Of a stretch of DNA of 42,138 nt, positions 4,863 through 22,498 are shown in pieces (position 1 is the stretch's first letter; the number at the start of each line of letters is the position of its first letter). The DNA is from a virus, in the UHGV virus genome UHGV-0055357, one strand, 5' to 3'. The notes beneath the pieces are model-generated. The model saw nothing but the letters and a program-made list of their open reading frames with translations. It was not told the DNA's origin and did not search any database. Both the position numbers and the translations under genes were made by a program.

Positions 4863-6017
4863 TTACGCTTTGTGTTTCTTAAAATTTTCGTCGTTTTGGA
4901 CGAAATGGAGAGAGTCCAGTATCAATCCCGCGATCCGCAGGATGTCCTCGGGTGAGTCCAGGTAAATGCGGTTGCCGTCTGCCTCCAGCCCGGCCCTGGA
5001 TATTTCATTGTAAATTACTGGTGTGAACTCAATAGGGAGTTGAATAGATGAGCGCAACTTTTTGTCATGATATCGAGCTATCCATCTATTTGTTTTTCCT
5101 TTAAATAGTACGGAAAAATAGGACTCTGTATCTTTGCCGTGTAAATCAACGTCTGCTCCCACAATGGCCTGGATTTTTTCGAACACCACCCGCTCGTTAT
5201 AGGTGGTGATAATATTTGGATTGTTGGGGTCGATAATATCAGCAGTCTCATCAATTACGGGTTCGTTGGCTGGATCTGGTTGCTGTACCACTTCCTCAAC
5301 TGCGGGATTGAACGACAGGCCGGATACCACCATTGCGCTGAGTGAGCGCTCTACTGCCTGTTTAACCAGCGGGGTAATTGACTCCAGAAATTTTTGGTTC
5401 AACTGACGTCCGATATTGGCATGGCTGGCAACATAACGAACAAAATCAACGTCAACCTCTTTGAGGCTTGCTGTGATAATTTTGGTGAATGACGATATGT
5501 AAACGCTTTCCTCCGCCAGAGTTCGTAGCGCCTCAGGCTTGAATTTATCGTGACGGAATCTAAAAAGCTGTTCGGCGTCAGCGTCTGAAATATCGTCCAT
5601 CACAACGCGTAAAAACGGCGTTGTGTCCATGATGTTTTTCTCTTTTAAATCAGTAAAAAAGCGCCACTCAACACCGTTAGTTATCGCGGAGATCGTAACT
5701 TCTGGAGTTGAGTTGAAATAGCGGGAGAGCTGCGGGCAATGGTTGTCGATTTTTTCCCGGCAGGATTTTGCTTCGATAAACATGACAGGCACACCCTGGC
5801 AGAATAGCGCGTAATCGACTCGCTCACCACTTTTGACGCCAGGGAAATCGGCGGCATACTCGGCTTTAACTTTCTGCGGATCGTAGGCATTAAAACCTAA
5901 AATATCTAAAAATGGCAGGATTAGCGCCTGTTTCGTGGTTTCTTCAGTTGTGCAGTGTTCCCTAACGTTTTTAACGTGTTCGATGTGATTTTTTAACTTT
6001 TGCTTAAAGCTTTCCAT
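4863..6017 (-). CDS. PD-(D/E)xK nuclease, HsdR-N-terminal-like restriction-endonuclease fold, with uncharacterised C-terminal domain
   Basis: 384 aa. N-terminal motifs ETTKQALILPFLDILGF … RVDYALF … VMFIEAK … QLSRY … ITNGVEWRFF match the D…E-x-K core of the type I HsdR N-terminal nuclease family. Same strand as the repressor and 31 bp downstream of it. Confidence 0.8.
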   Translation of the reverse strand: MESFKQKLKNHIEHVKNVREHCTTEETTKQALILPFLDILGFNAYDPQKVKAEYAADFPGVKSGERVDYALFCQGVPVMFIEAKSCREKIDNHCPQLSRYFNSTPEVTISAITNGVEWRFFTDLKEKNIMDTTPFLRVVMDDISDADAEQLFRFRHDKFKPEALRTLAEESVYISSFTKIITASLKEVDVDFVRYVASHANIGRQLNQKFLESITPLVKQAVERSLSAMVVSGLSFNPAVEEVVQQPDPANEPVIDETADIIDPNNPNIITTYNERVVFEKIQAIVGADVDLHGKDTESYFSVLFKGKTNRWIARYHDKKLRSSIQLPIEFTPVIYNEISRAGLEADGNRIYLDSPEDILRIAGLILDSLHFVQNDENFKKHKA

Positions 6018-9215: not shown

Positions 9216-9464
9216 ATGAGTAAATCATTAGAAGATTTAAACGCTGTTCTTTTTTCGCAGATTGATAAGCTTTCCACGGAAGAGCCTGGAGATAAACTGT
9301 CAGAGGAGATTAAGCGCTCCAAGGCGATGGTGGGGGTAGCGGATACTATTATCGCAAACTCGCGTTTGGTATTCGATATCTATGAATCGCAAGGAGGCAT
9401 GAAATCTATAGAAAATCGACCGGACATTTTGCGAGTTAAAAAACATACTGGCAATGGGAAATAG
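9216..9464 (+). CDS. hypothetical protein
   Basis: ORF track, 82 aa. First gene of a tightly packed three-gene unit with the HNH and methyltransferase genes. Confidence 0.5.
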   Translation: MSKSLEDLNAVLFSQIDKLSTEEPGDKLSEEIKRSKAMVGVADTIIANSRLVFDIYESQGGMKSIENRPDILRVKKHTGNGK

Positions 9465-10005
9465 ATTTCATAAGTTCACGGAAGAGCAAAAATGCTGGTT
9501 ATTTATTCATAACGAGTTGTCTCGCAGAGAGGCAACTCGATTATTTAACCTGCGATTTCAAACGGAACTCATTGAACAGCAAATAATTAATTTCAGAAAA
9601 CGACACGCTTTGCTTACCGGGAGAACAGGACGGTTTGCTCCAGGGCAAAGCTCGCCATCTCTCTCGGGCGCAAAAGGTCCAAACAGGACGTCATTTAAGC
9701 GTGGACATACTCCAGCCAACAAAGCCCTGGTGGGGGAAGAGAGGGTGAGGGGGGGATACATTTACGTCAAAACGGTTGATGGGCGGTGGAAATTAAAACA
9801 TCGATTGCAGCATGGAGGGCAGGTAGTGAGGTTTTGGGATGGGGACGCAAACAATTTATCACCGGAAAATTTAATTCCAGTTACACGCTCCGAACATCTT
9901 ATTTTAAACAGAACGGGGTATTCACATACACCAGAACCCGTAAGGGATGCCCATATTGCCGTTGCAAAATTGAAAGCAAAGATCATTGAGGTAAAGAAAA
10001 AATGA
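9454..10005 (+). CDS. HNH endonuclease (HNH_3-like)
   Basis: 183 aa. HRLQHGGQVVRFWDGDANNLSPENLIPVTRSEH matches the HNH catalytic pattern (His, Asn-Asn, final Glu-His). 4-nt overlap with the downstream methyltransferase. Confidence 0.7.
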   Translation: MGNRFHKFTEEQKCWLFIHNELSRREATRLFNLRFQTELIEQQIINFRKRHALLTGRTGRFAPGQSSPSLSGAKGPNRTSFKRGHTPANKALVGEERVRGGYIYVKTVDGRWKLKHRLQHGGQVVRFWDGDANNLSPENLIPVTRSEHLILNRTGYSHTPEPVRDAHIAVAKLKAKIIEVKKK

Positions 10006-11534
10006 GCATTGCAAATGAACTCTGGCAGGCCGTTGACATATTGCGCGGAGAGGTAAAATCCTCAGAGTACGGAAAATATATTCTACCACTCGTTATCCTG
10101 CGCAGGATAGAGCAGGTTAGTGACGTGGAGACATTACATTCAATCACCACAGGTGCAGAACTAGCGCGGCATATAGCAACCCTTTCGGGTACAGTGCGGA
10201 ATATTTTATCCTGTTTTGATTTTGACAAAACAATCAATAAAACACATGACACAATAGTACAGCAGTTGGCCTTAGCGTTTTCCTGCATTGATGTTCACCC
10301 GGATCGCGTAAATTCTGGCGATATGGGCATGATATTTGAGGATATGATCCACCGTTTCGCGAGTGATGAAACGGCGGGCGAATTCTACACGCCAACGGAT
10401 ATAGTGAAACTGATTACAGAACTGGTGATTCCACTGGATATCTCCAGTGAGGTGGCAATATACGATCCGACCTGCGGGACGGGGGGGATACTCGGCGCGG
10501 CGGAGGAGGTTATTCGTACTCGCCGCCCTGGAGCTGACGTTACATTATATGGTCAGGAATTGAATCCCGAATCTTTCGCCATTTGCCGTGCAGATATGTT
10601 ATTGCGCGGCAGGGATCCTGAAAATATCAGGCTGGGCAATACATTATCCGAGGACAAACTGGCGGGGCGTACATTCGATTTTATTCTCTCTAATCCACCG
10701 TATGGGGTGGACTGGAAAAAAATCGATAAGCTTGTACGAGCTGAACACTGTCAGGGGTTTGCAGGCCGTTACCCAGCGGGGTTACCCCGTGTGTCGGACG
10801 GTTCTCTCCTGTTTGTGCAGCACGTTATCAGCAAGCTGGCACCGGGCGGTCGCGCAGGAATTGTACTCAACGGCTCGCCATTATTTACTGGTGGAGCGGG
10901 CAGTGGAGAGAGCCAAATTCGCAGACACATACTGGAAAACGACCTGCTGGATTGTATTATCGGACTGCCAAAAGACATGTTCTATAACACAGGGATCACC
11001 ACGTACATCTGGATACTGACAAATGAAAAGAGAGTAGAACGAAAAGGGCTGGTCACGCTAATTGATGCATCTGACCTATTTGAAAAAATGCGCAAATCTC
11101 AGGGCAATAAGCGCAATCAGCTGACTGACGCTCAGATCGCTGAAATCGTCAAGTTGTACCGTGATAATCAACCAGGTGAAAAAGTTAAGATTTTTCCGTA
11201 CACCGCTTTTGGTTTCCGCCGAATCACTGTTAAGCGCCCGGACGAGAACGGGAAACCCGATAAAAATAAACGCGATAATGAAAACGTGCCGCTGGGTGAG
11301 AATATCGACGCGTATTTTGCCAGAGAGGTTACGCCACACGTTCCTGACGCCTGGATTGACAGAAAGAAGCGAGATCCGGTTGACGGGGAGGTTGGGATTG
11401 TTGGCTATGAAATACCCTTTAATCGTCATTTTTATGTTTATGTCCCACCGCGTCCCCTTGAAGAAATTGACGCTGAGCTCGCGAGCGTAAGCCGTGAAAT
11501 TGCTGCAATGCTTGCCGAGATGCAAGCGTATTAG
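10002..11534 (+). CDS. N6-adenine DNA methyltransferase, HsdM-like, no adjacent specificity subunit
   Basis: 510 aa. SAM-binding motif I IYDPTCGTGGIL, catalytic motif IV SNPPYG, C-terminal GYEIPFNRHFYVY motif as in type I M subunits. No HsdS or HsdR helicase gene nearby. Confidence 0.85.
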   Translation: MSIANELWQAVDILRGEVKSSEYGKYILPLVILRRIEQVSDVETLHSITTGAELARHIATLSGTVRNILSCFDFDKTINKTHDTIVQQLALAFSCIDVHPDRVNSGDMGMIFEDMIHRFASDETAGEFYTPTDIVKLITELVIPLDISSEVAIYDPTCGTGGILGAAEEVIRTRRPGADVTLYGQELNPESFAICRADMLLRGRDPENIRLGNTLSEDKLAGRTFDFILSNPPYGVDWKKIDKLVRAEHCQGFAGRYPAGLPRVSDGSLLFVQHVISKLAPGGRAGIVLNGSPLFTGGAGSGESQIRRHILENDLLDCIIGLPKDMFYNTGITTYIWILTNEKRVERKGLVTLIDASDLFEKMRKSQGNKRNQLTDAQIAEIVKLYRDNQPGEKVKIFPYTAFGFRRITVKRPDENGKPDKNKRDNENVPLGENIDAYFAREVTPHVPDAWIDRKKRDPVDGEVGIVGYEIPFNRHFYVYVPPRPLEEIDAELASVSREIAAMLAEMQAY

Positions 11535-15140: not shown

Positions 15141-16037
15141 ATGACTACGATTATCGCACAAGATTCTGTTTTCGCTGCTGTAGACCAACTTTGGACGGAT
15201 GAAGAAGACAGGCCAGCAGCCGCACCGTTTAAGAAGTATTACGTATTAAATGACTCTATACTTTTCTTTTCCGGCTACATCGACCCAATCTTAGCAATTT
15301 TGGCTGGCTACATCGGTGACCGCATCGGTGTTGATGAGGAGTTCGCCGATTGGATTGCAAAATATGTTGAAGCAGAGCGTAGTACCTGTGAATTCATTGA
15401 GGTGGATAGAAAGAGTGGGGCGATTACCTATTACATAGGTGCGGAGCGATTAAAAGCATTGGGTAGCATTTTTTACTGTGCAGGCTCTGGTTCAACATAT
15501 GCTATCAATTCGTATATTGATAGCGTTAGCATCATCAATACTGGTGGCGCTTTTGACTTTTCGCAGCATGGTCTAAACCTGATTACACGAAGTATGAACA
15601 TTGCTTTCCAAAAGGATCCGTGCTCTGGTGGTGATTTTAACTTTATTATCTGGTTGGAAAATGCTCAGGTCATTGATCGGTTAGACTGGATTGCAGATGC
15701 CCACATCGACAACTACAATAAAAAGATAAAGACTAAAATTATCGAGAGATTTGAAAGCGTAGATTGTCTGAAGGAAATGCTTGCATGGATGAATGATGAG
15801 TCAAAAGAGGATGATAAAGAGATGGAAATTGAAGCGAAAATCTTTGACCAGCAAGACGTGAAGAGTTATAGTCCGCAAACTAATTTAGCAGCAAAAGGAA
15901 GATCCAAAATGAGCAACACTACTCAGCAGAAACCAAGGGTTGCAGTGAAGACCTCGGGTTCTTCTCGAGGTGCAGTGTTAAGCGCATCTTCACTTAAAGC
16001 ACGTTTAGCCCAGCGTAAAGCAGAGGGGCTAAGCTAA
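15141..16037 (+). CDS. HslV / proteasome-beta-like Ntn-hydrolase domain protein with C-terminal extension (moron)
   Basis: 298 aa. N-terminus MTTII (Thr directly after Met), FKKYYVLND aligning with HslV VKKVRRLYND, and CAGSGSTYA aligning with HslV IGSGGPYA. Extra ~110-aa charged/basic tail. AT-rich upstream region and its own terminator. Confidence 0.7.
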   Translation: MTTIIAQDSVFAAVDQLWTDEEDRPAAAPFKKYYVLNDSILFFSGYIDPILAILAGYIGDRIGVDEEFADWIAKYVEAERSTCEFIEVDRKSGAITYYIGAERLKALGSIFYCAGSGSTYAINSYIDSVSIINTGGAFDFSQHGLNLITRSMNIAFQKDPCSGGDFNFIIWLENAQVIDRLDWIADAHIDNYNKKIKTKIIERFESVDCLKEMLAWMNDESKEDDKEMEIEAKIFDQQDVKSYSPQTNLAAKGRSKMSNTTQQKPRVAVKTSGSSRGAVLSASSLKARLAQRKAEGLS

Positions 16038-16518: not shown

Positions 16519-16839
16519 ATGCCTCACAAATCATTAGTCGATTTCGTAGCGCGAAACGACGGCACGATCACGCTCATGTTCCTGGCTATTGTCGGCGTTG
16601 TCGGCAGGGTGTTCTACACGGGCGCGCCCTGGCGGCAGGCTGTCGGGGATCTAATTCTCTGTCCGGCAATCACGTTTGCTATTGAGCCGTTGATGCCAAC
16701 TCAAATTTACGGGGTGAAAGTTACGCCTGAGCTGGTGGCGCTGTTGATCGGTATCGGCGGGGTGCACGGGGTTCGCTGGATTGTATCGCAGAGAAAAAAA
16801 CGACTCACAAACGTAACGGATGATAACCAGCCTCGCTAA
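16519..16839 (+). CDS. holin
   Basis: 106 aa, three predicted hydrophobic helices, basic C-terminus, immediately upstream of the endolysin. Confidence 0.65.
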   Translation: MPHKSLVDFVARNDGTITLMFLAIVGVVGRVFYTGAPWRQAVGDLILCPAITFAIEPLMPTQIYGVKVTPELVALLIGIGGVHGVRWIVSQRKKRLTNVTDDNQPR

Positions 16840-16866
16840 TGCGGGGCTTTTTTATGGAGACAGGCC

Positions 16867-17352
16867 ATGAGCGAACCACGCTGGCTTACTGAAGCTCATA
16901 AATTTATCGGACTGAAAGAGATTAAAGGGCCGCAGCATAACCAGGAGATCCTCCAGTTCTGGCGCGATATTAAACGCGGCGGAATTAAAGACGATGAAAC
17001 GCCCTGGTGTGCTGCGTTCACCGGAGCTGTGCTGGAACGTTGCGGAATTAAATCAACGCTGTTTGAGTCGGCTGGCTCATACCTCGGCTGGGGTGAACAG
17101 CTATTAAAACCGGCGTTCGGGTGCGTTGTTGTATTTAAACGCGACGGCGGCGGGCATGTTGGTTTTGTTGTCGGTCAAAATAGCGCGGGTGATTTGCTGG
17201 TGCTGGGCGGCAATCAGTCTGACGCGGTGAATATCAAAGCGTTCCCGCGCTCGCGGGTTAGCGGTTATCGCTGGCCCGTAGGTGTTCAGGATATTCCTGA
17301 TTTTAATTTGCCCGAACGGGTGAATATTAGTTTTTCAATTAGTGAGGCGTGA
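16867..17352 (+). CDS. endolysin, CHAP / NlpC-P60-like peptidoglycan hydrolase
   Basis: 161 aa. Cys in TPWCAAF and His in GGGHVGFVV fit the Cys-His pair of CHAP-type cell-wall hydrolases. Sits after the holin. Confidence 0.65.
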   Translation: MSEPRWLTEAHKFIGLKEIKGPQHNQEILQFWRDIKRGGIKDDETPWCAAFTGAVLERCGIKSTLFESAGSYLGWGEQLLKPAFGCVVVFKRDGGGHVGFVVGQNSAGDLLVLGGNQSDAVNIKAFPRSRVSGYRWPVGVQDIPDFNLPERVNISFSISEA

Positions 17353-17354
17353 CG

Positions 17355-17549
17355 ATGAAAAAATTATTAATTCTGGTGGCGCTGGTCGCCCTGGCTGGTT
17401 GTACACACACGACGTATACGGAAGCAACACGCGCAGACGGAACGACGGTGAAACATATTGCGATCGCGCCGGGTACGAAAATTACAACGGCAAACGGAAA
17501 CTGTATTGATTCGACGGGCGCGGCGGCTGAGTGTCCGGTAAAGGAATAA
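17355..17549 (+). CDS. small lipoprotein
   Basis: Signal peptide MKKLLILVALVALAGC with lipobox LAGC, ~48-aa mature part. Start taken at the ATG at 17355. Confidence 0.6.
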   Translation: MKKLLILVALVALAGCTHTTYTEATRADGTTVKHIAIAPGTKITTANGNCIDSTGAAAECPVKE

Positions 17550-17552
17550 GCA

Positions 17553-17801
17553 ATGAAAAAAACATTGCTGGCCGCCTTATTTCTCTCGTTGACTGCGTGC
17601 ACTGACCCGGATTCCGCGCGAAAGGCACTGGAGGTTAACGGGTACACCAATATACAGATTCGGGGTTATGCGGGGTTGATGTGCTCTAAAGACGACACCT
17701 ATTCAACTAAATTCACAGCAATATCCCCAGCCGGACACTCTGTTAGCGGTGCTGTGTGTAGTGGATTGTTGAAGGCTGCGACGATTCGAATCGACGTCTA
17801 A
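17553..17801 (+). CDS. small lipoprotein
   Basis: MKKTLLAALFLSLTAC with lipobox LTAC, ~65-aa mature part containing three further Cys. Confidence 0.65.
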   Translation: MKKTLLAALFLSLTACTDPDSARKALEVNGYTNIQIRGYAGLMCSKDDTYSTKFTAISPAGHSVSGAVCSGLLKAATIRIDV

Positions 17802-17997
17802 CAATATGACTCGTTGACAATTTACAGCAAATAAACACTACAGAGCGTCAATTACTGGCGCTCAATAGTGATTATTGGAAGGTGGGCGACCGCCGCCAGT
17901 TGGAGCTGGCGACAGTCATTCATACCCACAGGGTGCCGTGGATACAAACCGAGGCCCACTTGCTCGCGCGAGCCGGGTAATAGTAATCGGAATAGAC

Positions 17998-18777
17998 ATG
18001 GCTGAACAGATAGCAGTTATTTTTAAAAACATTTCCGAACTGAATGAGTACGAACGAAATACGCGGACACATTCAGATGAGCAGGTTGCGCAGATAGCAA
18101 AAAGCATTGATGAGTTCGGCTGGACTAACCCGGTGCTGATTGATGAGGCCGGGGAAATTATTGCAGGCCACGGGCGCGTTGCTGCTGCAAAAGATCTCGG
18201 GCTGAATGAGGTCCCAACAATCACCCTTTATGGCCTGACCAACGAGCAAAAACGCGCGTACCGGATCGCGGACAACAAATTGCCGTTAAATGCGGGTTGG
18301 GATGATGAGCTGCTACGGCTAGAACTAACGGAACTCAGCGCCTGCGGGTTCGATATAGAGCTAACTGGATTTAGTGCGGGCGAACTCGATGAGCTATTGG
18401 CGGAAATAGCGCCCGGTGCGGAGTCGGAAGATCCGTACACAACAAAAATTGACACCCCGGTTTATGAGCCGTCTGAAATTAATCCTGCAGTAACTGAACT
18501 CTACGATGACTCAAAAACACACCAGCTCGTTAATGATATTCGTGCGGCTGGGCTACCTGGCGACGTGGAAAAGTTTTTACTCTCTGCCGCTGAGCGTCAC
18601 ACGGTATTCAATTTCAATAAAATTGCTGATTACTACGCGCACGCACCAGAAAATATCCAGACACTATTTGAACAATCCGCACTGGTGATCATTGATTACG
18701 AAAAAGCCATTGAATACGGCCTCGTCCACATGACGCAGAAACTGGTTGAAATAGTTTACGGTGATCGCGATGCGTGA
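17998..18777 (+). CDS. ParB-like nuclease domain protein
   Basis: GWTNPVLIDEAGEIIAGHGRVAAAKDLG matches the ParB N-terminal nuclease motif. Start taken at the ATG at 17998; the track extension from a TTG at 17875 looks non-coding. Confidence 0.7.
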   Translation: MAEQIAVIFKNISELNEYERNTRTHSDEQVAQIAKSIDEFGWTNPVLIDEAGEIIAGHGRVAAAKDLGLNEVPTITLYGLTNEQKRAYRIADNKLPLNAGWDDELLRLELTELSACGFDIELTGFSAGELDELLAEIAPGAESEDPYTTKIDTPVYEPSEINPAVTELYDDSKTHQLVNDIRAAGLPGDVEKFLLSAAERHTVFNFNKIADYYAHAPENIQTLFEQSALVIIDYEKAIEYGLVHMTQKLVEIVYGDRDA

Positions 18778-19633
18778 TGATTTTTGCGCGTTCATCATGA
18801 CGCACGGGCGACCCGACAAAGTTCTTACATACAGCACATTGAGACGTGCCGGATACACGGGAAAAATTTATATCGTCATTGATGACGAGGACGAATCACA
18901 GCAGCGTTATCGTGATGAATTCGGGGATCAGGTTCTGGTTTTTTCAAAAGGGGACATCGCCAGCCGATTTGATGAGGGTGACAATTTCGGTGACCGCCGT
19001 TCGATATTTTACGCCCGCAACGCCTGTTTTGAGTTGGCGGAATTAGTTGGCTGCAAATATTTTATTCAGCTCGATGATGATTATCACGAATTTCAGTTCC
19101 GTATTAATGAGAATCTGGACGTAGCGTATACCGCAATCCGTAATCTGGACGAGGTGCTCAACGAAATGCTGGAGTATTACCTGCGAATACCAGCAGCATC
19201 GATAGCAATGTCGCAAGGCGGCGATTTTCTCGGCTCAAGGACTGATGGTTGCGGGGCGTGGATAAAACGCAAAGCGATGAACAGTTTTATTTGTTCAACG
19301 GATCGCAAATTTGAGTTTGTCGGGCGGGTTAACGAGGACGTGAACACGTACACGAACCTCGGTCGTCGTGGCGAGCTGTTTATGACTATCGGTGCTGTTC
19401 AGTTGGGACAGAAACAGACGCAAAAAAATAGCGGTGGCATGACTGAGTTATATCTGGATTCAGGAACCTACGTAAAAAGTTTTTATTCGGTCATGTATTC
19501 GCCGTCATGCGTAAAGATCGGATTGATGGGCGCAAGCCATAAACGATTACATCACGAGGTGACCTGGAATAACGCCGCAGTAAAAATCATCAATGAGCGT
19601 TATAAAAAATGCCGTCAACGGGGTTCGATATGA
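18761..19633 (+). CDS. hypothetical protein with acidic DxD-like motifs
   Basis: 290 aa. IVIDDEDE and IQLDDDYHEF motifs. No family recognised with confidence. Confidence 0.55.
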   Translation: MIAMRDDFCAFIMTHGRPDKVLTYSTLRRAGYTGKIYIVIDDEDESQQRYRDEFGDQVLVFSKGDIASRFDEGDNFGDRRSIFYARNACFELAELVGCKYFIQLDDDYHEFQFRINENLDVAYTAIRNLDEVLNEMLEYYLRIPAASIAMSQGGDFLGSRTDGCGAWIKRKAMNSFICSTDRKFEFVGRVNEDVNTYTNLGRRGELFMTIGAVQLGQKQTQKNSGGMTELYLDSGTYVKSFYSVMYSPSCVKIGLMGASHKRLHHEVTWNNAAVKIINERYKKCRQRGSI

Positions 19634-19881
19634 TCCCCTTGGGCAAAGTCGAATCATTAGCTGCCTGCCGCATGAGTGAGCAACAAATTGCTGATGCGCT
19701 GGATATAAATCTAACTGAACTGAAACGAGATCCGGAGATGCTCACGCAGTACCGCGAAACAATCAGGAAAGGCAGGGCTAAAGGCGAAGCTGAATTGCGG
19801 GCGGTATTGTACAAACGCGCTAAAAACGGCGACCGTTCGGCGTATGTGGAACTAATGAGACGAGAGAAGGAAAGCGGCTAA
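19630..19881 (+). CDS. small HTH protein upstream of the small terminase
   Basis: ~83 aa from the ATG at 19630, ATGA overlap with the upstream gene. MSEQQIADALDINLTELKR looks like an HTH. Confidence 0.45.
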   Translation: MIPLGKVESLAACRMSEQQIADALDINLTELKRDPEMLTQYRETIRKGRAKGEAELRAVLYKRAKNGDRSAYVELMRREKESG

Positions 19882-20870
19882 TGAAACCGGACGAGGGCGC
19901 ACTTAAACGTGATTACTGCGCCGGAGTGCTCTCGATCCAGAAAGTTGCAGACAGGCACGGTATAGCAAAATCCACTCTGATGGATATGGCGAAAAAATAC
20001 GGCTGGATGCGACAAAAAAATCCGTCCAAAAAATCCGTCCAAAATAAAAATGGACGGACGGACGAAAAAACAGTTGAGCGAGAGAAATCTGACGCGAAAA
20101 AAAACTCGTTAGTTGCTGGTGTCGATGAGGACGATTCAGTCGACGAAGCCAGTAATTTCGGGCTATCCCCGCAGCAGGCGAATTTTGCACATTACGTCGC
20201 TGAGGGTAAATCCAGGGTGGAGGCGTACCGACTCGCAGGATACAAATGCGAAGGAGAATTTGCGCATCAATCAGCCAGTCGCCTGTATAGAAATGTCAAG
20301 GTTTCGCGCTACATCCGACACCTCCGCGACAAATTCGAAAAACGCCAGGCCGCAACAATTGACGACCTGATTCATCAGTACACAGCAATAGCAAATGCTG
20401 ACCCGAACGAACTGGCACAGCACAGACGCGTAAACTGTCGTTACTGCTGGGGTGAACACCATCTCTACCAGTGGCGTGATATTGCTGAATACGACCGGGC
20501 ATCAGCCTCAGCGGCAAAAGACGGAAAACAGCCGCCAGATTACGGTGGCCTGGGATTTGTTGATACTGCCGATCCTCACCCTGATTGCCCGAAATGTAAC
20601 GGCGAGGGAGTGAGCGAGGTATTTATTACCGACACCCGAGATCTGGAGGGTAACGCTCGCTGGCTATACGCGGGCGTGAAAGAAACGAAATTCGGGATTG
20701 AGATTCAGACCGCAAATCAGGACGCGGCACGGCGTGAACTCGCCAGGCTGTTGACCGCTCATCTGACGGCGGGTGGCAAACCAGGTGAACGCGCGGCAGC
20801 AGGTTACACACCGGACGATTACCGCAACGCACAGAACTGGATCGACAATGAATTTGGGGATCTGGACTGA
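19881..20870 (+). CDS. terminase small subunit
   Basis: 329 aa. N-terminal HTH, and ANFAHYVAEGKSRVEAYRLAGYKCEGEFAHQSASRLYRNVKVSRYI resembles the small-terminase core. Directly upstream of the large terminase. Confidence 0.7.
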   Translation: MKPDEGALKRDYCAGVLSIQKVADRHGIAKSTLMDMAKKYGWMRQKNPSKKSVQNKNGRTDEKTVEREKSDAKKNSLVAGVDEDDSVDEASNFGLSPQQANFAHYVAEGKSRVEAYRLAGYKCEGEFAHQSASRLYRNVKVSRYIRHLRDKFEKRQAATIDDLIHQYTAIANADPNELAQHRRVNCRYCWGEHHLYQWRDIAEYDRASASAAKDGKQPPDYGGLGFVDTADPHPDCPKCNGEGVSEVFITDTRDLEGNARWLYAGVKETKFGIEIQTANQDAARRELARLLTAHLTAGGKPGERAAAGYTPDDYRNAQNWIDNEFGDLD

Positions 20871-22498
20871 TGATTGAGTGGGAGAATCTCGAGTTTCCAA
20901 AGCGGGTGGAGGTGAAACGTCGCTCCACCCGTTCTTTTTTGAATTACACGCGACTGTGGTTTGAGTTGATCCAGGGTGACCGATTGATGGTCAACTGGCA
21001 CCACAGGATGATGGCGGCGAAAATCGACGGGATTATTAACGGCACAGCAGCAAAACGAAATCTGATTATCAACACCCCGCCAGGCTCCACGAAAACGGAA
21101 TTTTTTTCTATTCACCTGCCAGCGTATATCAACGCGCTGGTGCAGGAAAAAAAACTACAGCGTTTTCGTAATCTGAATATCTCGTTCTCTGATTCACTCG
21201 TTAAACGTAACAGCCGCAGAACGAGAGATATTATTGCCAGTCCTGAGTATCAGGAGTTATGGCCCTGCCAGTTCGGCGTCAAACAGGCTGACGAGTGGGA
21301 GATAATCAATGCGCTGGGGCGTTCAGTTGGACAAACAGTGTCGCGCGCTGGTGGCGGTCAGATTACCGGTGGTCGTGGTGGCTATCCCGGTCCTGAGTTT
21401 TCGGGGTACGTGCTGCTCGATGATTTTAATAAACCGCTCGATATGTTTTCGGAGACGAAACGCGCCTCAGCCAACCAGCTGCTGGTAAACACAATTCGCT
21501 CCCGGCGCGGGGATCGCTCTAAAGACAATCCCACGCCGATAATCTCTATACAGCAACGACTCCACGTTGATGACGCCACCGGGTTTATGCTCGCTGGTGG
21601 TATGGGCCTGAGTTTTGACCACACGGTTATTCCCGCGCTGATTAGTGAGGAATATATCGACGCGCTGCCGGAACCGTGGCGATCACAGTGCTGGAACGTC
21701 GTAAAAAACACGGACAGCGTGACTGTCGCGGGTGTGCGGTACTGGTCGTATTGGCCCGAGATGGAGTTCGTGGGAGATCTGCTGGCACTGTGGGAGCGTG
21801 ACGCGTACACGTTTTTGAGTCAGTACCAGCAAAATCCGGCGGCATTATCCGGTGGGCTGATTAACGGCGAATGGTTTCGCACCTACCGAAAATTACCGCG
21901 CCTGCTCTGGCGTGCTGTGTACGTTGATACCAACTCCGGCAAAGTTAAAGATTTTAACGACTACACCGTGTTTACTCTGGCTGGTATGGGGGCAGACGGA
22001 AATATGTACATCATCGATATGGAGCGCGGGAAATGGGATCCGGAGGAGTTGTTACGGAAAGCCGAGGAACTCTGGGAGCGCTGGCAACCGTCGGATACTC
22101 TCCAGCGTGCGGCACTGCGTTATATGTCGATCGAGGATAAACAAGCAGGGCAGGGGCTGATAACTACGCTCACAAAACGCCGCGCTATTCCTATCAACGC
22201 GGTTCAGCGTGGTGACGGTGAAAATAAACTGGTCCGGTGCCTGAACTGTATCCCGCAACTGAAAACCGGAAAAGTTTATATCCCGGATACGCACGACGCG
22301 GACCGGAACCCGATATTCCACACGTATTACAGTGACGGCGTAACGATAGCTGGCACAACACAGTGGGTGGTTGGATTTGTTGCCGAGGCCGTTGCGTTTA
22401 CTGCTGACGATACACACGACCACGACGATATGCTGGACACTGCGATGGACGCGGTAGACGACATGCTGATTAACCCGCAACGAGGATTTTTTGACTGA
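20870..22498 (+). CDS. terminase large subunit
   Basis: 542 aa. P-loop-like [11 protein letters not shown], Walker-B-like VLLDDF, and a C-terminal RNase-H-like nuclease region (YVDTNSG … YTVFTLAGM … [10 protein letters not shown]). Confidence 0.85.

What the first reader, a model, noticed from the sequence alone, without database searches (positions are those of the whole stretch)
17998..19633. ParB-like nuclease-domain protein plus an acidic DxD-motif protein upstream of the terminase genes
ParB-like nuclease-domain genes near phage packaging genes have been linked to DNA processing, and in some phages to DNA modification when paired with transferases. The adjacent 290-aa protein has DxD-like acidic clusters (IVIDDEDE, QLDDDYHEF) that could indicate a nucleotide-sugar or nucleotidyl transferase, but I cannot place it in a family.
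Basis: inference. Interest (0 to 1): 0.45.

Follow-up and report, generated by a model that had tools for sequence, protein, structure and literature searches.

The report
ParB-partnered phage glycosyltransferase gene pair
The unplaced 290-aa protein is a glycosyltransferase of the phage DNA-sugar-adding family TAGT, always paired with a ParB-like adaptor, in an E. coli prophage that has no known way to make the hydroxymethylated bases such enzymes normally decorate, so what it modifies is unknown.

Summary
Window 17998-18777 encodes a 259-aa ParB/Srx-fold protein.

The two genes overlap by 8 nt and open a chain of overlapping genes: ParB, TAGT, HTH, TerS, TerL, portal.

In 227 of 227 related loci that could be evaluated, TAGT follows a protein carrying the same C-terminal module. 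This module is a short conserved motif, a helical domain and an acidic tail, and matches no Pfam or PDB entry. The loci come from proteobacterial, Lactobacillus, Nocardia and haloarchaeal viruses. 94% of the partners also carry the ParB nucleotide-binding domain, which is shared with ParB-fused DNA methyltransferases. A natural TAGT-ParB-CTD fusion exists.

The complete 44-kb STEC prophage has no TET/JBP dioxygenase or hydroxymethylase.

Most likely this is a two-subunit, late-expressed DNA glycosylation module with an unknown acceptor. Protein glycosylation is the main rival. The E. coli version is full-length in 889 of 5426 complete genomes. The K-12 genes ynaK and ydaY are its remnants.

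The parts
17877..17990 (+). Conserved non-coding leader directly 5' of the ParB start. It has an invariant closing stem (UGGGC/GCCCA), a hairpin with covarying pairs, and a 12-bp perfect palindrome (GCTCGCGCGAGC). It is an optional companion of ParB-led operons, not a core part of the pair.
   Evidence: It is conserved at 72-97% in 11 distinct loci, including a Yersinia phage whose ParB is followed by a ParB-methyltransferase. Indels are not multiples of 3. 6-7 pairs show compensatory changes. There is no Rfam family. The single-sequence fold is not significant (z -0.66).
17998..18405 (+). ParB-like protein, residues 1-136: ParB/Srx nucleotide-binding domain plus two following helices. Motif GHGR (G57-R60) stands in place of the canonical GERR.
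   Evidence: PF02195. AF2 pLDDT is about 90 over residues 11-100. Foldseek hits are Noc, ParB, PadC and KorB at E 2e-6 to 1e-4. The profile alignment to PDB ParB/Noc places IIAGHGR on IIAGERR. PADLOC MTase_II model, N-terminal part, E 7e-42.
18406..18474 (+). Predicted disordered linker (residues 137-159) holding the conserved linear motif Y147-T-x-K-I-x-x-P-x-Y156-x-P158.
   Evidence: pLDDT is below 50 over residues 137-154. Y147 and Y156 are invariant and P154 is near-invariant in 58 diverse sequences.
18475..18774 (+). ParB-like protein C-terminal helical domain (AAERHTVFNFNKIADYYAH...SALVIIDY) plus acidic tail. This is the TAGT-specific partner module.
   Evidence: It is present upstream of TAGT in 227 of 227 evaluable loci, sometimes without any ParB domain. 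It is absent from the Yersinia ParB that pairs with a methyltransferase. No Pfam or PDB sequence match. 1148 cluster representatives carry it; in the 150 listed it is C-terminal in nearly all.
18770..19633 (+). TAGT-family GT-A glycosyltransferase (287 aa). Positions below use the 290-aa numbering. R17. Nucleotide-binding acidic cluster D41-D44 (nt 18881-18892). DxD motif D105-D107 (nt 19073-19081). N191-E192-D193. Basic C-terminal extension, residues 227-290.
   Evidence: PF20691 E 8e-37 and phrog_842 E 4e-92. Invariant residues. AF2 pTM 0.82 with Foldseek hits to SpsA, GnT-I, ColGalT1, LARGE1, glycogenin and AvpGT. The C-terminal 62 aa have pI 9.6. The start overlaps the ParB stop by 8 nt (ATGCGTGA).
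19630..19881 (+). 83-aa HTH-like protein related to the N-terminal part of small terminase subunits. Its start overlaps the TAGT stop (ATGA).
   Evidence: phrog_309 E 6e-14. Sequence. It is conserved downstream of TAGT in the enterobacterial loci.
19881..20870 (+). Terminase small subunit.
   Evidence: PF03592 E 4e-14 and phrog_51 E 1e-42. It travels with ParB-TAGT-HTH as a four-gene block while TerL types differ.
20870..22498 (+). Terminase large subunit.
   Evidence: phrog_38 E 3e-96 and PF17289.

Best explanation
This is a two-gene, translationally coupled glycosylation module that heads the DNA-packaging operon of a temperate E. coli phage. The catalytic subunit is a metal-dependent GT-A glycosyltransferase of the TAGT family, which uses an NDP-sugar. 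Its obligate partner is the upstream ParB-like protein. The partner's C-terminal module (linear motif, helical domain, acidic tail) docks to the transferase. Its N-terminal ParB/Srx nucleotide-binding domain is the same module that is fused to phage DNA methyltransferases. That domain gates or delivers the enzyme onto double-stranded phage DNA late in infection, just before or during packaging. The sugar-decorated DNA would then be protected from host restriction in the next cell.

Shown here: family membership, fold, intact catalytic motifs, strict co-occurrence, gene overlap, a natural fusion, and absence of any hydroxymethyl-pyrimidine pathway.

Inferred: physical complex formation, DNA as the target, the timing, and the protective role.

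Unknown: the acceptor atom. The phage makes no 5-hmC or 5-hmU, so the acceptor would have to be a canonical base, the backbone or a DNA end.
For: TAGT membership is far above cut-off, and the published GT-A motif set R...DDD...ED is invariant (motif from bioRxiv 10.1101/2023.12.21.572611). The fold is GT-A.

The characterised relatives cited here that are phage or trypanosome enzymes act on DNA. T2/T6 TAGT adds a second glucose to glucosyl-hmC (PMC13216743). 5mYOX-linked GT-A enzymes glycosylate 5hmC, and they resemble the base-J glucosyltransferase.

The partner's C-terminal module lies upstream of TAGT in 227 of 227 evaluable loci from proteobacterial, Lactobacillus, Nocardia, Vibrio and haloarchaeal viruses. 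The start and stop codons overlap by 8 nt here and in the E. coli loci, and by 11 nt in the Lactobacillus and haloarchaeal viruses.

A natural TAGT-ParB-CTD fusion occurs on three independent contigs, followed by a second TAGT and TerL.

CTD distances track TAGT distances better than NBD distances do (r 0.90 against 0.69; distant pairs 0.31 against -0.15).

The NBD matches the N-terminal module of ParB-fused DNA methyltransferases (E 7e-42). In a Yersinia phage the same leader and the same gene position carry a ParB plus a ParB-methyltransferase.

The predicted architecture is NBD, helices, disordered linker and CTD, with no HTH. This equals the architecture of the phage ParB shown to activate a thymine dioxygenase on dsDNA (PMC13229309).

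Phosphate-binding residues R23, R60 and N93 are conserved.

The position at the head of the packaging operon recurs in unrelated phages.
Against: No enzyme that could supply a hydroxyl-bearing base is present. There is no Tet_JBP or thymidylate-synthase-type hit in the whole 44-kb prophage, none in the complete Lactobacillus phage genome, and none among the listed Pfam families for 69 upstream proteins from 30 diverse loci. Direct glycosylation of unmodified DNA has no precedent that I know of.

The ParB-like protein is strongly acidic (pI 4.4) and has no recognisable DNA-binding domain. The catalytic Glu of the GERR motif is replaced by His.

4% of partners lack the ParB domain altogether, so NTP gating cannot be essential everywhere.

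The eukaryotic homologue GREB1 glycosylates a protein (PMC7968844).

No experimental data exist for any member of this subfamily in the papers searched.
Confidence: 0.5

Rival explanations
1. The transferase glycosylates a protein rather than DNA. The most specific version is that the acceptor is its own partner: an invariant Tyr, or the adjacent Thr/Ser, in the disordered motif Y-T-x-K-I-x-x-P-x-Y-x-P, in the manner of glycogenin. Alternatively the target is a terminase, a virion protein or a host protein.
For: Two invariant tyrosines sit in a predicted disordered linker just before the CTD. Glycogenin and other protein-modifying GT-A enzymes (ColGalT1, the SunS S-glycosyltransferase) are among the fold matches. 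GREB1, the animal TAGT homologue, O-GlcNAcylates ER-alpha (PMC7968844). There is no hydroxylated DNA base for the enzyme to use. The partner is acidic and lacks a DNA-binding domain. Tandem second TAGT genes and extra putative glycosyltransferases in some loci would fit glycan chain building.
Against: The partner's N-terminal domain is the one used by DNA methyltransferases and by a DNA dioxygenase activator (PMC13229309). The phage and trypanosome relatives characterised so far all act on DNA. A conserved short motif in a linker is equally expected for a docking peptide. The fold matches are generic for GT-A.
Confidence: 0.2
2. The enzyme still needs a hydroxymethylated or already glycosylated pyrimidine, as T2/T6 TAGT does. 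It would act only on such DNA supplied from elsewhere, for example the genome of a co-infecting T-even-like phage, so it would serve inter-phage competition rather than self-protection.
For: It is a TAGT family member, and the only biochemically defined phage TAGT adds a second sugar to glucosyl-hmC. The gene pair sits in a prophage in 889 of 5426 complete E. coli genomes.
Against: The pair heads the late packaging operon with overlapping reading frames, so it should be expressed on induction and not in the lysogen. The same pair occurs in lytic phages and a halovirus. The T4-like Aeromonas phage 65 TAGT is only about 23-25% identical and has no CTD partner. The pair matches no PADLOC defence model.
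Confidence: 0.07
3. The two genes are functionally separate. The ParB-like protein would be a nuclease or accessory factor for terminase. The glycosyltransferase would be a lysogenic-conversion 'moron' that alters the cell surface.
For: The site between the lysis and packaging genes is a known hot spot for morons; trkG sits there in the E. coli relatives. ParB-like proteins next to terminases have long been annotated as nucleases. The closest PDB fold matches of related phage GT-A enzymes include the prophage wall-teichoic-acid transferase TarP.
Against: Co-occurrence is 227 of 227, the reading frames overlap, a fusion protein exists, and the CTD co-varies with TAGT. The gene order is the same in a haloarchaeal virus, and the CTD-protein/TAGT pair also occurs in a 191-kb lytic Vibrio phage.
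Confidence: 0.06
4. The 287-aa protein is a nucleotidyltransferase (sugar-nucleotide pyrophosphorylase type) rather than a glycosyltransferase.
For: ADP-glucose pyrophosphorylases appear among the Foldseek matches at E about 5e-5, because they share the GT-A-like Rossmann core.
Against: The specific sequence family is TAGT, at 100 bits above cut-off. The top and best-TM matches are glycosyltransferases: SpsA, GnT-I, AvpGT and ColGalT1. The R...DDD...ED motif set of phage DNA GT-A enzymes is invariant.
Confidence: 0.03

Closest known systems
T2/T6 beta-glucosyl-HMC-alpha-glucosyltransferase, the founding phage member of Pfam TAGT (PF20691)
   Same: Same Pfam family and GT-A fold. Phage-encoded and post-replicative. 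PHROG 842 carries its name.
   Different: The T-even enzyme adds a second glucose to alpha-glucosyl-5hmC in genomes that make hmC. Here there is no hmC pathway and no alpha- or beta-GT. T4-like relatives are only about 23-25% identical (Aeromonas phage 65). That relative has no CTD partner protein.
5mYOX/TET-associated GT-A glycosyltransferases of metaviromes (Burke 2021, PMC8256090; Pyle 2023 bioRxiv 10.1101/2023.12.21.572611)
   Same: GT-A fold and the same R...DDD...ED active-site motif set. ParB-like genes and terminase genes were listed among the neighbours of these GTs.
   Different: Those enzymes sit beside a C5-methyltransferase and a dioxygenase that create the 5hmC acceptor. This pair stands alone. 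[quoted passage not shown]
ParB activators of phage thymine dioxygenases (O'Toole 2026, PMC13229309)
   Same: A small phage ParB with a nucleotide-binding domain, short helices, a disordered linker and a C-terminal domain, and no HTH. It is encoded next to, and specific for, a DNA-modifying enzyme. Conserved NTP-pocket residues.
   Different: The partner enzyme here is a glycosyltransferase, not a dioxygenase. Activation is inferred here, not shown.
ParB-fused phage DNA methyltransferases (Kaljevic 2025, PMC12704722; PHROG 498; PADLOC MTase_II PDLC03229)
   Same: The N-terminal 135-145 residues are clearly homologous (E 7e-51 and 7e-42). The position next to packaging genes is the same. In Yersinia phage vB_YpM_39 the same leader precedes a ParB and a ParB-Methyltransf_23 fusion.
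   Different: The effector here is a separate polypeptide, reached through a dedicated C-terminal module. No methyltransferase domain is present.
Canonical chromosome/plasmid ParB (ParABS partition)
   Same: Fold of the N-terminal domain and the phosphate-binding Arg of the GxxR motif.
   Different: No HTH DNA-binding domain. No ParA in any window ORF scanned. GERR is changed to GHGR. The protein is acidic. It lies in the late phage operon.

Membership tests
Pfam PF20691 TAGT (TET-Associated Glycosyltransferase) | Profile score above the curated gathering threshold | tested here: met
   127.5 bits against 27.5, E 8e-37, residues 11-226 on profile positions 4-205 of 205. phrog_842 E 4e-92.
Pfam PF20691 TAGT (TET-Associated Glycosyltransferase) | GT-A fold with DxD and the R...DDD...ED catalytic motif set | tested here: met
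   The AF2 model has pTM 0.82. Best PDB matches are SpsA, GnT-I, ColGalT1, LARGE1 and AvpGT. R17, D105-D107 and D193 are invariant, and N191 and E192 are invariant or nearly so.
Pfam PF20691 TAGT (TET-Associated Glycosyltransferase) | Genomic association with a TET/JBP dioxygenase or another source of 5-hydroxymethylpyrimidine | tested here: not met
   None in the whole prophage. None in the complete phage phi jlb1. None among the listed Pfam families of 69 upstream proteins from 30 loci. This is a contextual feature, not a sequence-defining one.
Pfam PF20691 TAGT (TET-Associated Glycosyltransferase) | Sugar transfer to a DNA base or to a DNA-linked sugar | not testable with these tools
   Needs nucleoside mass spectrometry or an in-vitro assay.
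ParB/Srx superfamily (PF02195 ParB_N) | Profile score above threshold and the ParB N-domain fold | tested here: met
   29.3 bits against 26.3. Foldseek hits Noc, ParB, PadC and KorB at E 2e-6 to 1e-4.
ParB/Srx superfamily (PF02195 ParB_N) | NTP-pocket residues: box I Arg, GxxR Arg and the Asn of ENxxR | tested here: met
   R60 and N93 are invariant; R23 is present here and in the family consensus. The catalytic Glu of GERR is replaced by His58. NTP binding itself was not tested.
Canonical partition ParB (ParABS) | HTH DNA-binding domain, a ParA partner and a parS site | tested here: not met
   No HTH domain in Pfam or in the model. No ParA in any window ORF scanned. The protein has pI 4.4. A 12-bp palindrome lies 30 nt upstream, but it is absent from most related loci.
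ParB-type activators of phage DNA-modifying enzymes (5mYOX-ParB) | Architecture of NBD, helix pair, disordered linker and CTD, without a DNA-binding domain, encoded beside the cognate enzyme | tested here: met
   AF2 gives strands and helices over 7-134, a disordered stretch at 137-154 and a helical domain at 172-240. The gene lies directly upstream of the enzyme gene and overlaps it.
ParB-type activators of phage DNA-modifying enzymes (5mYOX-ParB) | Requirement of the partner for enzyme activity on dsDNA | not testable with these tools
   Needs co-expression or reconstitution.
ParB-fused DNA methyltransferases | Methyltransferase domain in the same polypeptide | tested here: not met
   Only the N-terminal ParB module matches (PADLOC PDLC03229 positions 16-154 of 436; phrog_498 positions 39-176 of 633).

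The most novel reading that the evidence does not exclude
The ParB-CTD/TAGT pair is a self-sufficient two-protein system that puts a sugar directly on unmodified DNA (a canonical base, the backbone or a DNA end), with no prior hydroxymethylation. That would be a DNA modification chemistry not yet described. It would be carried by prophages in about one in six complete E. coli genomes and by viruses of Firmicutes, Actinobacteria, Vibrio and haloarchaea.
Probability: 0.3. Interest if true: 0.85.

Novelty: new variant of a known kind. Interest (0 to 1): 0.55.

Why it matters
Phage DNA glycosylation is known only as a second step on hydroxymethylated pyrimidines. A 2026 survey counted 288 of 753 GT-encoding phage genomes with 'solitary' TAGT homologues of unknown role (PMC13216743). 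This work shows that one large solitary subfamily is not solitary. It always comes with a dedicated partner module, usually on a ParB nucleotide-binding domain, at the head of the packaging operon, and with no source of hydroxymethyl bases.

This makes the open question directly testable in E. coli with two small genes. If DNA is the target, it is a new modification route relevant to restriction and CRISPR evasion, and to sequencing and cloning of prophage DNA. If the target is a protein, it is a new use of the ParB fold.

It also extends the recent finding that phage ParBs activate DNA-modifying enzymes, from dioxygenases to glycosyltransferases. It explains the K-12 orphan genes ynaK and ydaY as remnants of the pair.

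Tried and rejected
- **Hidden dioxygenase or hydroxymethylase.** I scanned every sizeable ORF of the window with Pfam and PHROGs. I also checked the RefSeq annotation of the prophage ends, the complete phi jlb1 genome, and 69 upstream proteins from 30 representative loci. Nothing was found. Limit: for one set only 25 of 37 matched Pfam families were displayed.
- **tRNA or a known RNA family in the window.** None. A U4 snRNA hit (19.8 bits against 46) is spurious.
- **The leader as a thermodynamically stable RNA.** The single-sequence z-score is only -0.66. Support comes from covariation only.
- **Remote homology of the C-terminal module.** No significant Pfam or PDB-sequence match. There is a weak sub-threshold PF23887 signal in 16 of 58 members.
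- **Accessory methyltransferase or extra GT genes as core parts.** The Methyltransf_23, GT9-like and MptE-like neighbours occur in at most 5 loci each, so they are not core.
- **Defence-system membership.** TAGT has no PADLOC match.
- **Structure prediction of the complex.** Not attempted. The tool returns no inter-chain confidence, and paired sequences from fetched loci are not admissible.
- **Iyer et al. 2013 (NAR 41:7635).** This paper defined TAGT and proposed that ParB directs modification enzymes. It is not in the held library. Its view is cited only through Burke 2021 and O'Toole 2026.
- **Pyle et al. 2024 (Cell Rep).** The journal version is not held. The bioRxiv version was used.
Full report
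**What is there**

The window is almost the whole of a 44-kb lambdoid-type prophage. It is 100% identical to the chromosomes of E. coli STEC384 and STEC379 and is integrated beside ttcA, the Rac site.

Its early region carries Gam, an ExoVIII-like exonuclease, a CI-type repressor, O/P replication genes, NinB, NinG and a Q-like protein. A lysis cassette at 16519-17801 follows.

The finding lies directly after the lysis genes.
- 17998-18777 encodes a 259-aa ParB/Srx-fold protein (PF02195 at 29.3 bits against a cut-off of 26.3; phrog_620 E 2e-70).
- The next ORF, 290 aa from a GTG at 18761, is a clear member of Pfam PF20691, 'TET-Associated Glycosyltransferase' (TAGT). It scores 127.5 bits against a cut-off of 27.5, and phrog_842 gives E 4e-92.
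- The likelier start is the ATG at 18770, giving 287 aa. RefSeq and a 99%-identical metagenomic protein use this start. It overlaps the ParB stop by 8 nt, ATGCGTGA.
- The chain of overlaps continues: TAGT/83-aa HTH protein 4 nt (ATGA), HTH/TerS 1 nt, TerS/TerL 1 nt, TerL/portal 1 nt. All six genes therefore form one translationally coupled unit.

**The transferase**

An alignment with relatives from Lactobacillus phage phi jlb1 and the haloarchaeal virus HHTV-2 (42% identity) shows many invariant residues. They include R17, D44, D71, D74-N75, Y84-A85-R86, D105-D106-D107-Y108, Q152/G154/D155, R170-K171, N191-E192-D193, T220-Q221 and R262/H264/H265/W269.

This contains the R...DDD...ED motif set described for phage DNA GT-A enzymes (bioRxiv 10.1101/2023.12.21.572611).

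The AlphaFold2 model (pLDDT 81, pTM 0.82) is a GT-A fold. Its best PDB matches are SpsA, GnT-I, ColGalT1, LARGE1, glycogenin and the nucleoside glycosyltransferase AvpGT.

In SpsA-type enzymes these positions hold the uridine-binding Asp and the DxD metal site; that placement is my inference from the model.

A conserved 62-residue C-terminal extension beyond the Pfam domain is basic, with pI 9.6.

**The partner**

The AF2 model (pLDDT 77.5) has four parts: a ParB nucleotide-binding domain, two helices (103-134), a disordered stretch (137-154) and a confident helical domain (about 160-240).

Only the N-terminal roughly 135 residues match solved structures: Noc, ParB, PadC and KorB at E 2e-6 to 1e-4.

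A profile alignment puts IIAGHGR on the canonical IIAGERR. The phosphate-binding Arg (R60), the box I Arg (R23) and N93 are kept, while the hydrolytic Glu is replaced by His.

The same N-terminal module matches the N-terminus of ParB-fused DNA methyltransferases: phrog_498 E 7e-51 and PADLOC MTase_II E 7e-42.

The whole protein is acidic (pI 4.4) and has no HTH domain.

**Comparative genomics**

I fetched 251 loci. 227 of them had enough upstream sequence to judge.
- All 227 carry the partner's C-terminal module directly upstream of TAGT on the same strand. The module is the motif Y[TS]xK[IV]xxPxYxP, then a helical domain (AAxRHxxFNYxxIAxYYAH ... SALVIIDF), then an acidic tail.
- 213 of these partners also have a recognisable ParB domain.
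- 5 have a divergent long N-domain.
- 9 are CTD-only proteins of 120-156 aa.

A 191-kb lytic Vibrio phage has a CTD-only protein plus TAGT next to a helicase. Nocardia phage NTR1 has the order CTD protein, TAGT, TerL. The T4-like Aeromonas phage 65 makes hmC, has only a remote TAGT, and has no CTD partner.

The Yersinia phage vB_YpM_39 ParB pairs with a ParB-Methyltransf_23 fusion. It shares the N-domain (E 1.5e-58) but lacks the CTD.

The CTD has no Pfam or PDB-sequence relative. It defines 1148 representatives at 50% clustering. Among the 150 listed it lies at the C-terminus in nearly all; a few carry 70-120 further residues after it.

One representative (534 aa) is a natural fusion of a TAGT-like domain, a ParB domain and the CTD. 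It occurs on three independent contigs and is followed by a second TAGT (14-nt overlap), TerL and portal.

Across 160 distinct pairs, CTD distances track TAGT distances better than the ParB-domain distances do, although CTD and ParB domain share a polypeptide. Pearson r is 0.90 against 0.69; among distant pairs it is 0.31 against -0.15. This comparison is not corrected for phylogeny.

My reading is that the CTD is the transferase-specific docking module and the ParB domain is a generic, exchangeable module shared with other DNA-modifying enzymes.

In enterobacterial loci, ParB-TAGT-HTH-TerS moves as a block while TerL types differ.

**What is missing**

TAGT enzymes with known function need a hydroxymethylated pyrimidine or a sugar already attached to one (PMC13216743, PMC8256090 and the Pyle preprint).

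No Tet_JBP, thymidylate-synthase-type hydroxymethylase, or alpha- or beta-GT was found in any of the following:
- the whole prophage;
- the complete phi jlb1 genome;
- the listed Pfam families of 69 upstream proteins from 30 representative loci.

The only other modification gene in the window is an orphan HsdM-type N6-adenine methyltransferase.

Extra putative glycan-building genes occur in a few loci only. These are a second TAGT, a GT9-like protein, an MptE-like protein and a Methyltransf_23 protein.

**Mechanism**

I commit to a two-subunit glycosylation module acting on phage DNA late in infection (confidence 0.5). TAGT is the catalytic subunit. The partner's CTD docks to it. The ParB domain gates or delivers it on dsDNA.

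Four lines support this.
- The characterised phage and trypanosome relatives cited here (T2/T6 TAGT, 5mYOX-linked GT-A enzymes, the base-J glucosyltransferase) act on DNA.
- The ParB module is shared with DNA methyltransferases at the same genomic position.
- A phage ParB of the same architecture has been shown to activate a thymine dioxygenase specifically on dsDNA (PMC13229309).
- Aravind and co-workers earlier proposed that ParB directs modification enzymes during packaging, as cited in PMC8256090.

The weak point is the acceptor. Without a hydroxymethyl base the sugar must go onto a canonical base, the backbone or an end, and I know of no precedent for that.

The main rival (0.2) is protein glycosylation, possibly of the partner's own invariant tyrosines. 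That would fit the acidic, DNA-binding-domain-free partner, and it has a precedent in GREB1 (PMC7968844).

The minor rivals are action on foreign hmC DNA, two unrelated genes, and a nucleotidyltransferase. Each is disfavoured for the reasons given in its entry.

**Novelty and prevalence**

The families are known. ParB-like genes have been listed among GT neighbours, and 'solitary TAGTs' have been flagged as unexplained.

I did not find the following described in the held literature:
- the strict pairing with a dedicated C-terminal module;
- the CTD-only and fused variants;
- the systematic absence of a hydroxymethyl pathway in this subfamily.

The E. coli version of the pair is full-length in 889 of 5426 complete genomes. 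The K-12 Rac genes ynaK and ydaY are its truncated remnants.

I rate this a new variant of a known kind, with interest 0.55. If direct glycosylation of unmodified DNA were shown, interest would be about 0.85.

Noticed in passing
window 17877-17990 (+), also L012, L048, L049, L054, L055, L057, L059, L092, L205, L222: A roughly 110-nt conserved non-coding element lies immediately upstream of the ParB start. It has an invariant closing stem UGGGC/GCCCA, an inner hairpin with four covarying pairs, and a 12-bp perfect palindrome (GCTCGCGCGAGC, GCTCTCGAGAGC or GCTTGTACAAGC). The palindrome stays symmetrical even at its centre, which fits a DNA-binding site as well as an RNA hairpin. There is no Rfam family. 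It also occurs in Yersinia phages and in 69 E. coli plasmid records (likely phage-plasmids), where a ParB plus a ParB-methyltransferase follows. It is absent from most ParB-TAGT loci.
   Followed up: partly
P0248; loci L252, L253 and a 16.6-kb JGI contig: A natural 534-aa fusion of a TAGT-like domain, a ParB nucleotide-binding domain and the CTD. It is followed by a second TAGT gene and the large terminase, on three independent contigs.
   Followed up: yes
L092 (Yersinia phage vB_YpM_39) 3130-5126: At the position equivalent to ParB-TAGT, behind the same leader, sit a 207-aa ParB without the CTD and a 457-aa ParB-Methyltransf_23 fusion. This is an apparent swap of the effector behind a shared ParB module.
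   Followed up: partly
L048 4912-7017, L059, L054; L086 4304-6360: A few loci add genes around the pair: an MptE-like protein (weak), a GT9-like protein (weak) and a Methyltransf_23 protein (E 2e-12) upstream of ParB. In L086 a Methyltransf_23 gene sits between a CTD-only protein and TAGT. Four loci have two TAGT genes. This suggests more elaborate glycans in some phages.
   Followed up: partly
E. coli K-12 Rac prophage (e.g. NZ_CP026342.1 1425377-1425630): The K-12 genes ynaK and ydaY, downstream of trkG, are truncated remnants of the E. coli version of the ParB-TAGT pair. The intact pair is present in 889 of 5426 complete E. coli genomes.
   Followed up: yes
window 9454-11534 (+): An orphan HsdM-type N6-adenine DNA methyltransferase (510 aa, PF02384 E 2e-65) lies directly after an HNH endonuclease-like gene (183 aa). 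No HsdS or HsdR lies beside them.
   Followed up: no
window 4863-6017 (-): A 384-aa protein with a type I restriction HSDR_N nuclease-type domain (phrog_4225 'endonuclease', E 7e-146) lies next to the CI-like repressor. It is a candidate prophage-encoded nuclease expressed in the lysogen. It has no PADLOC match.
   Followed up: no
window 15141-16037 (+): A low-GC stretch (0.40 against about 0.50) holds a 298-aa ORF between the Q-like gene and the lysis genes. Its only hit is a weak HslV-like peptidase PHROG match (E 1e-7). It is probably a moron of unknown function.
   Followed up: no
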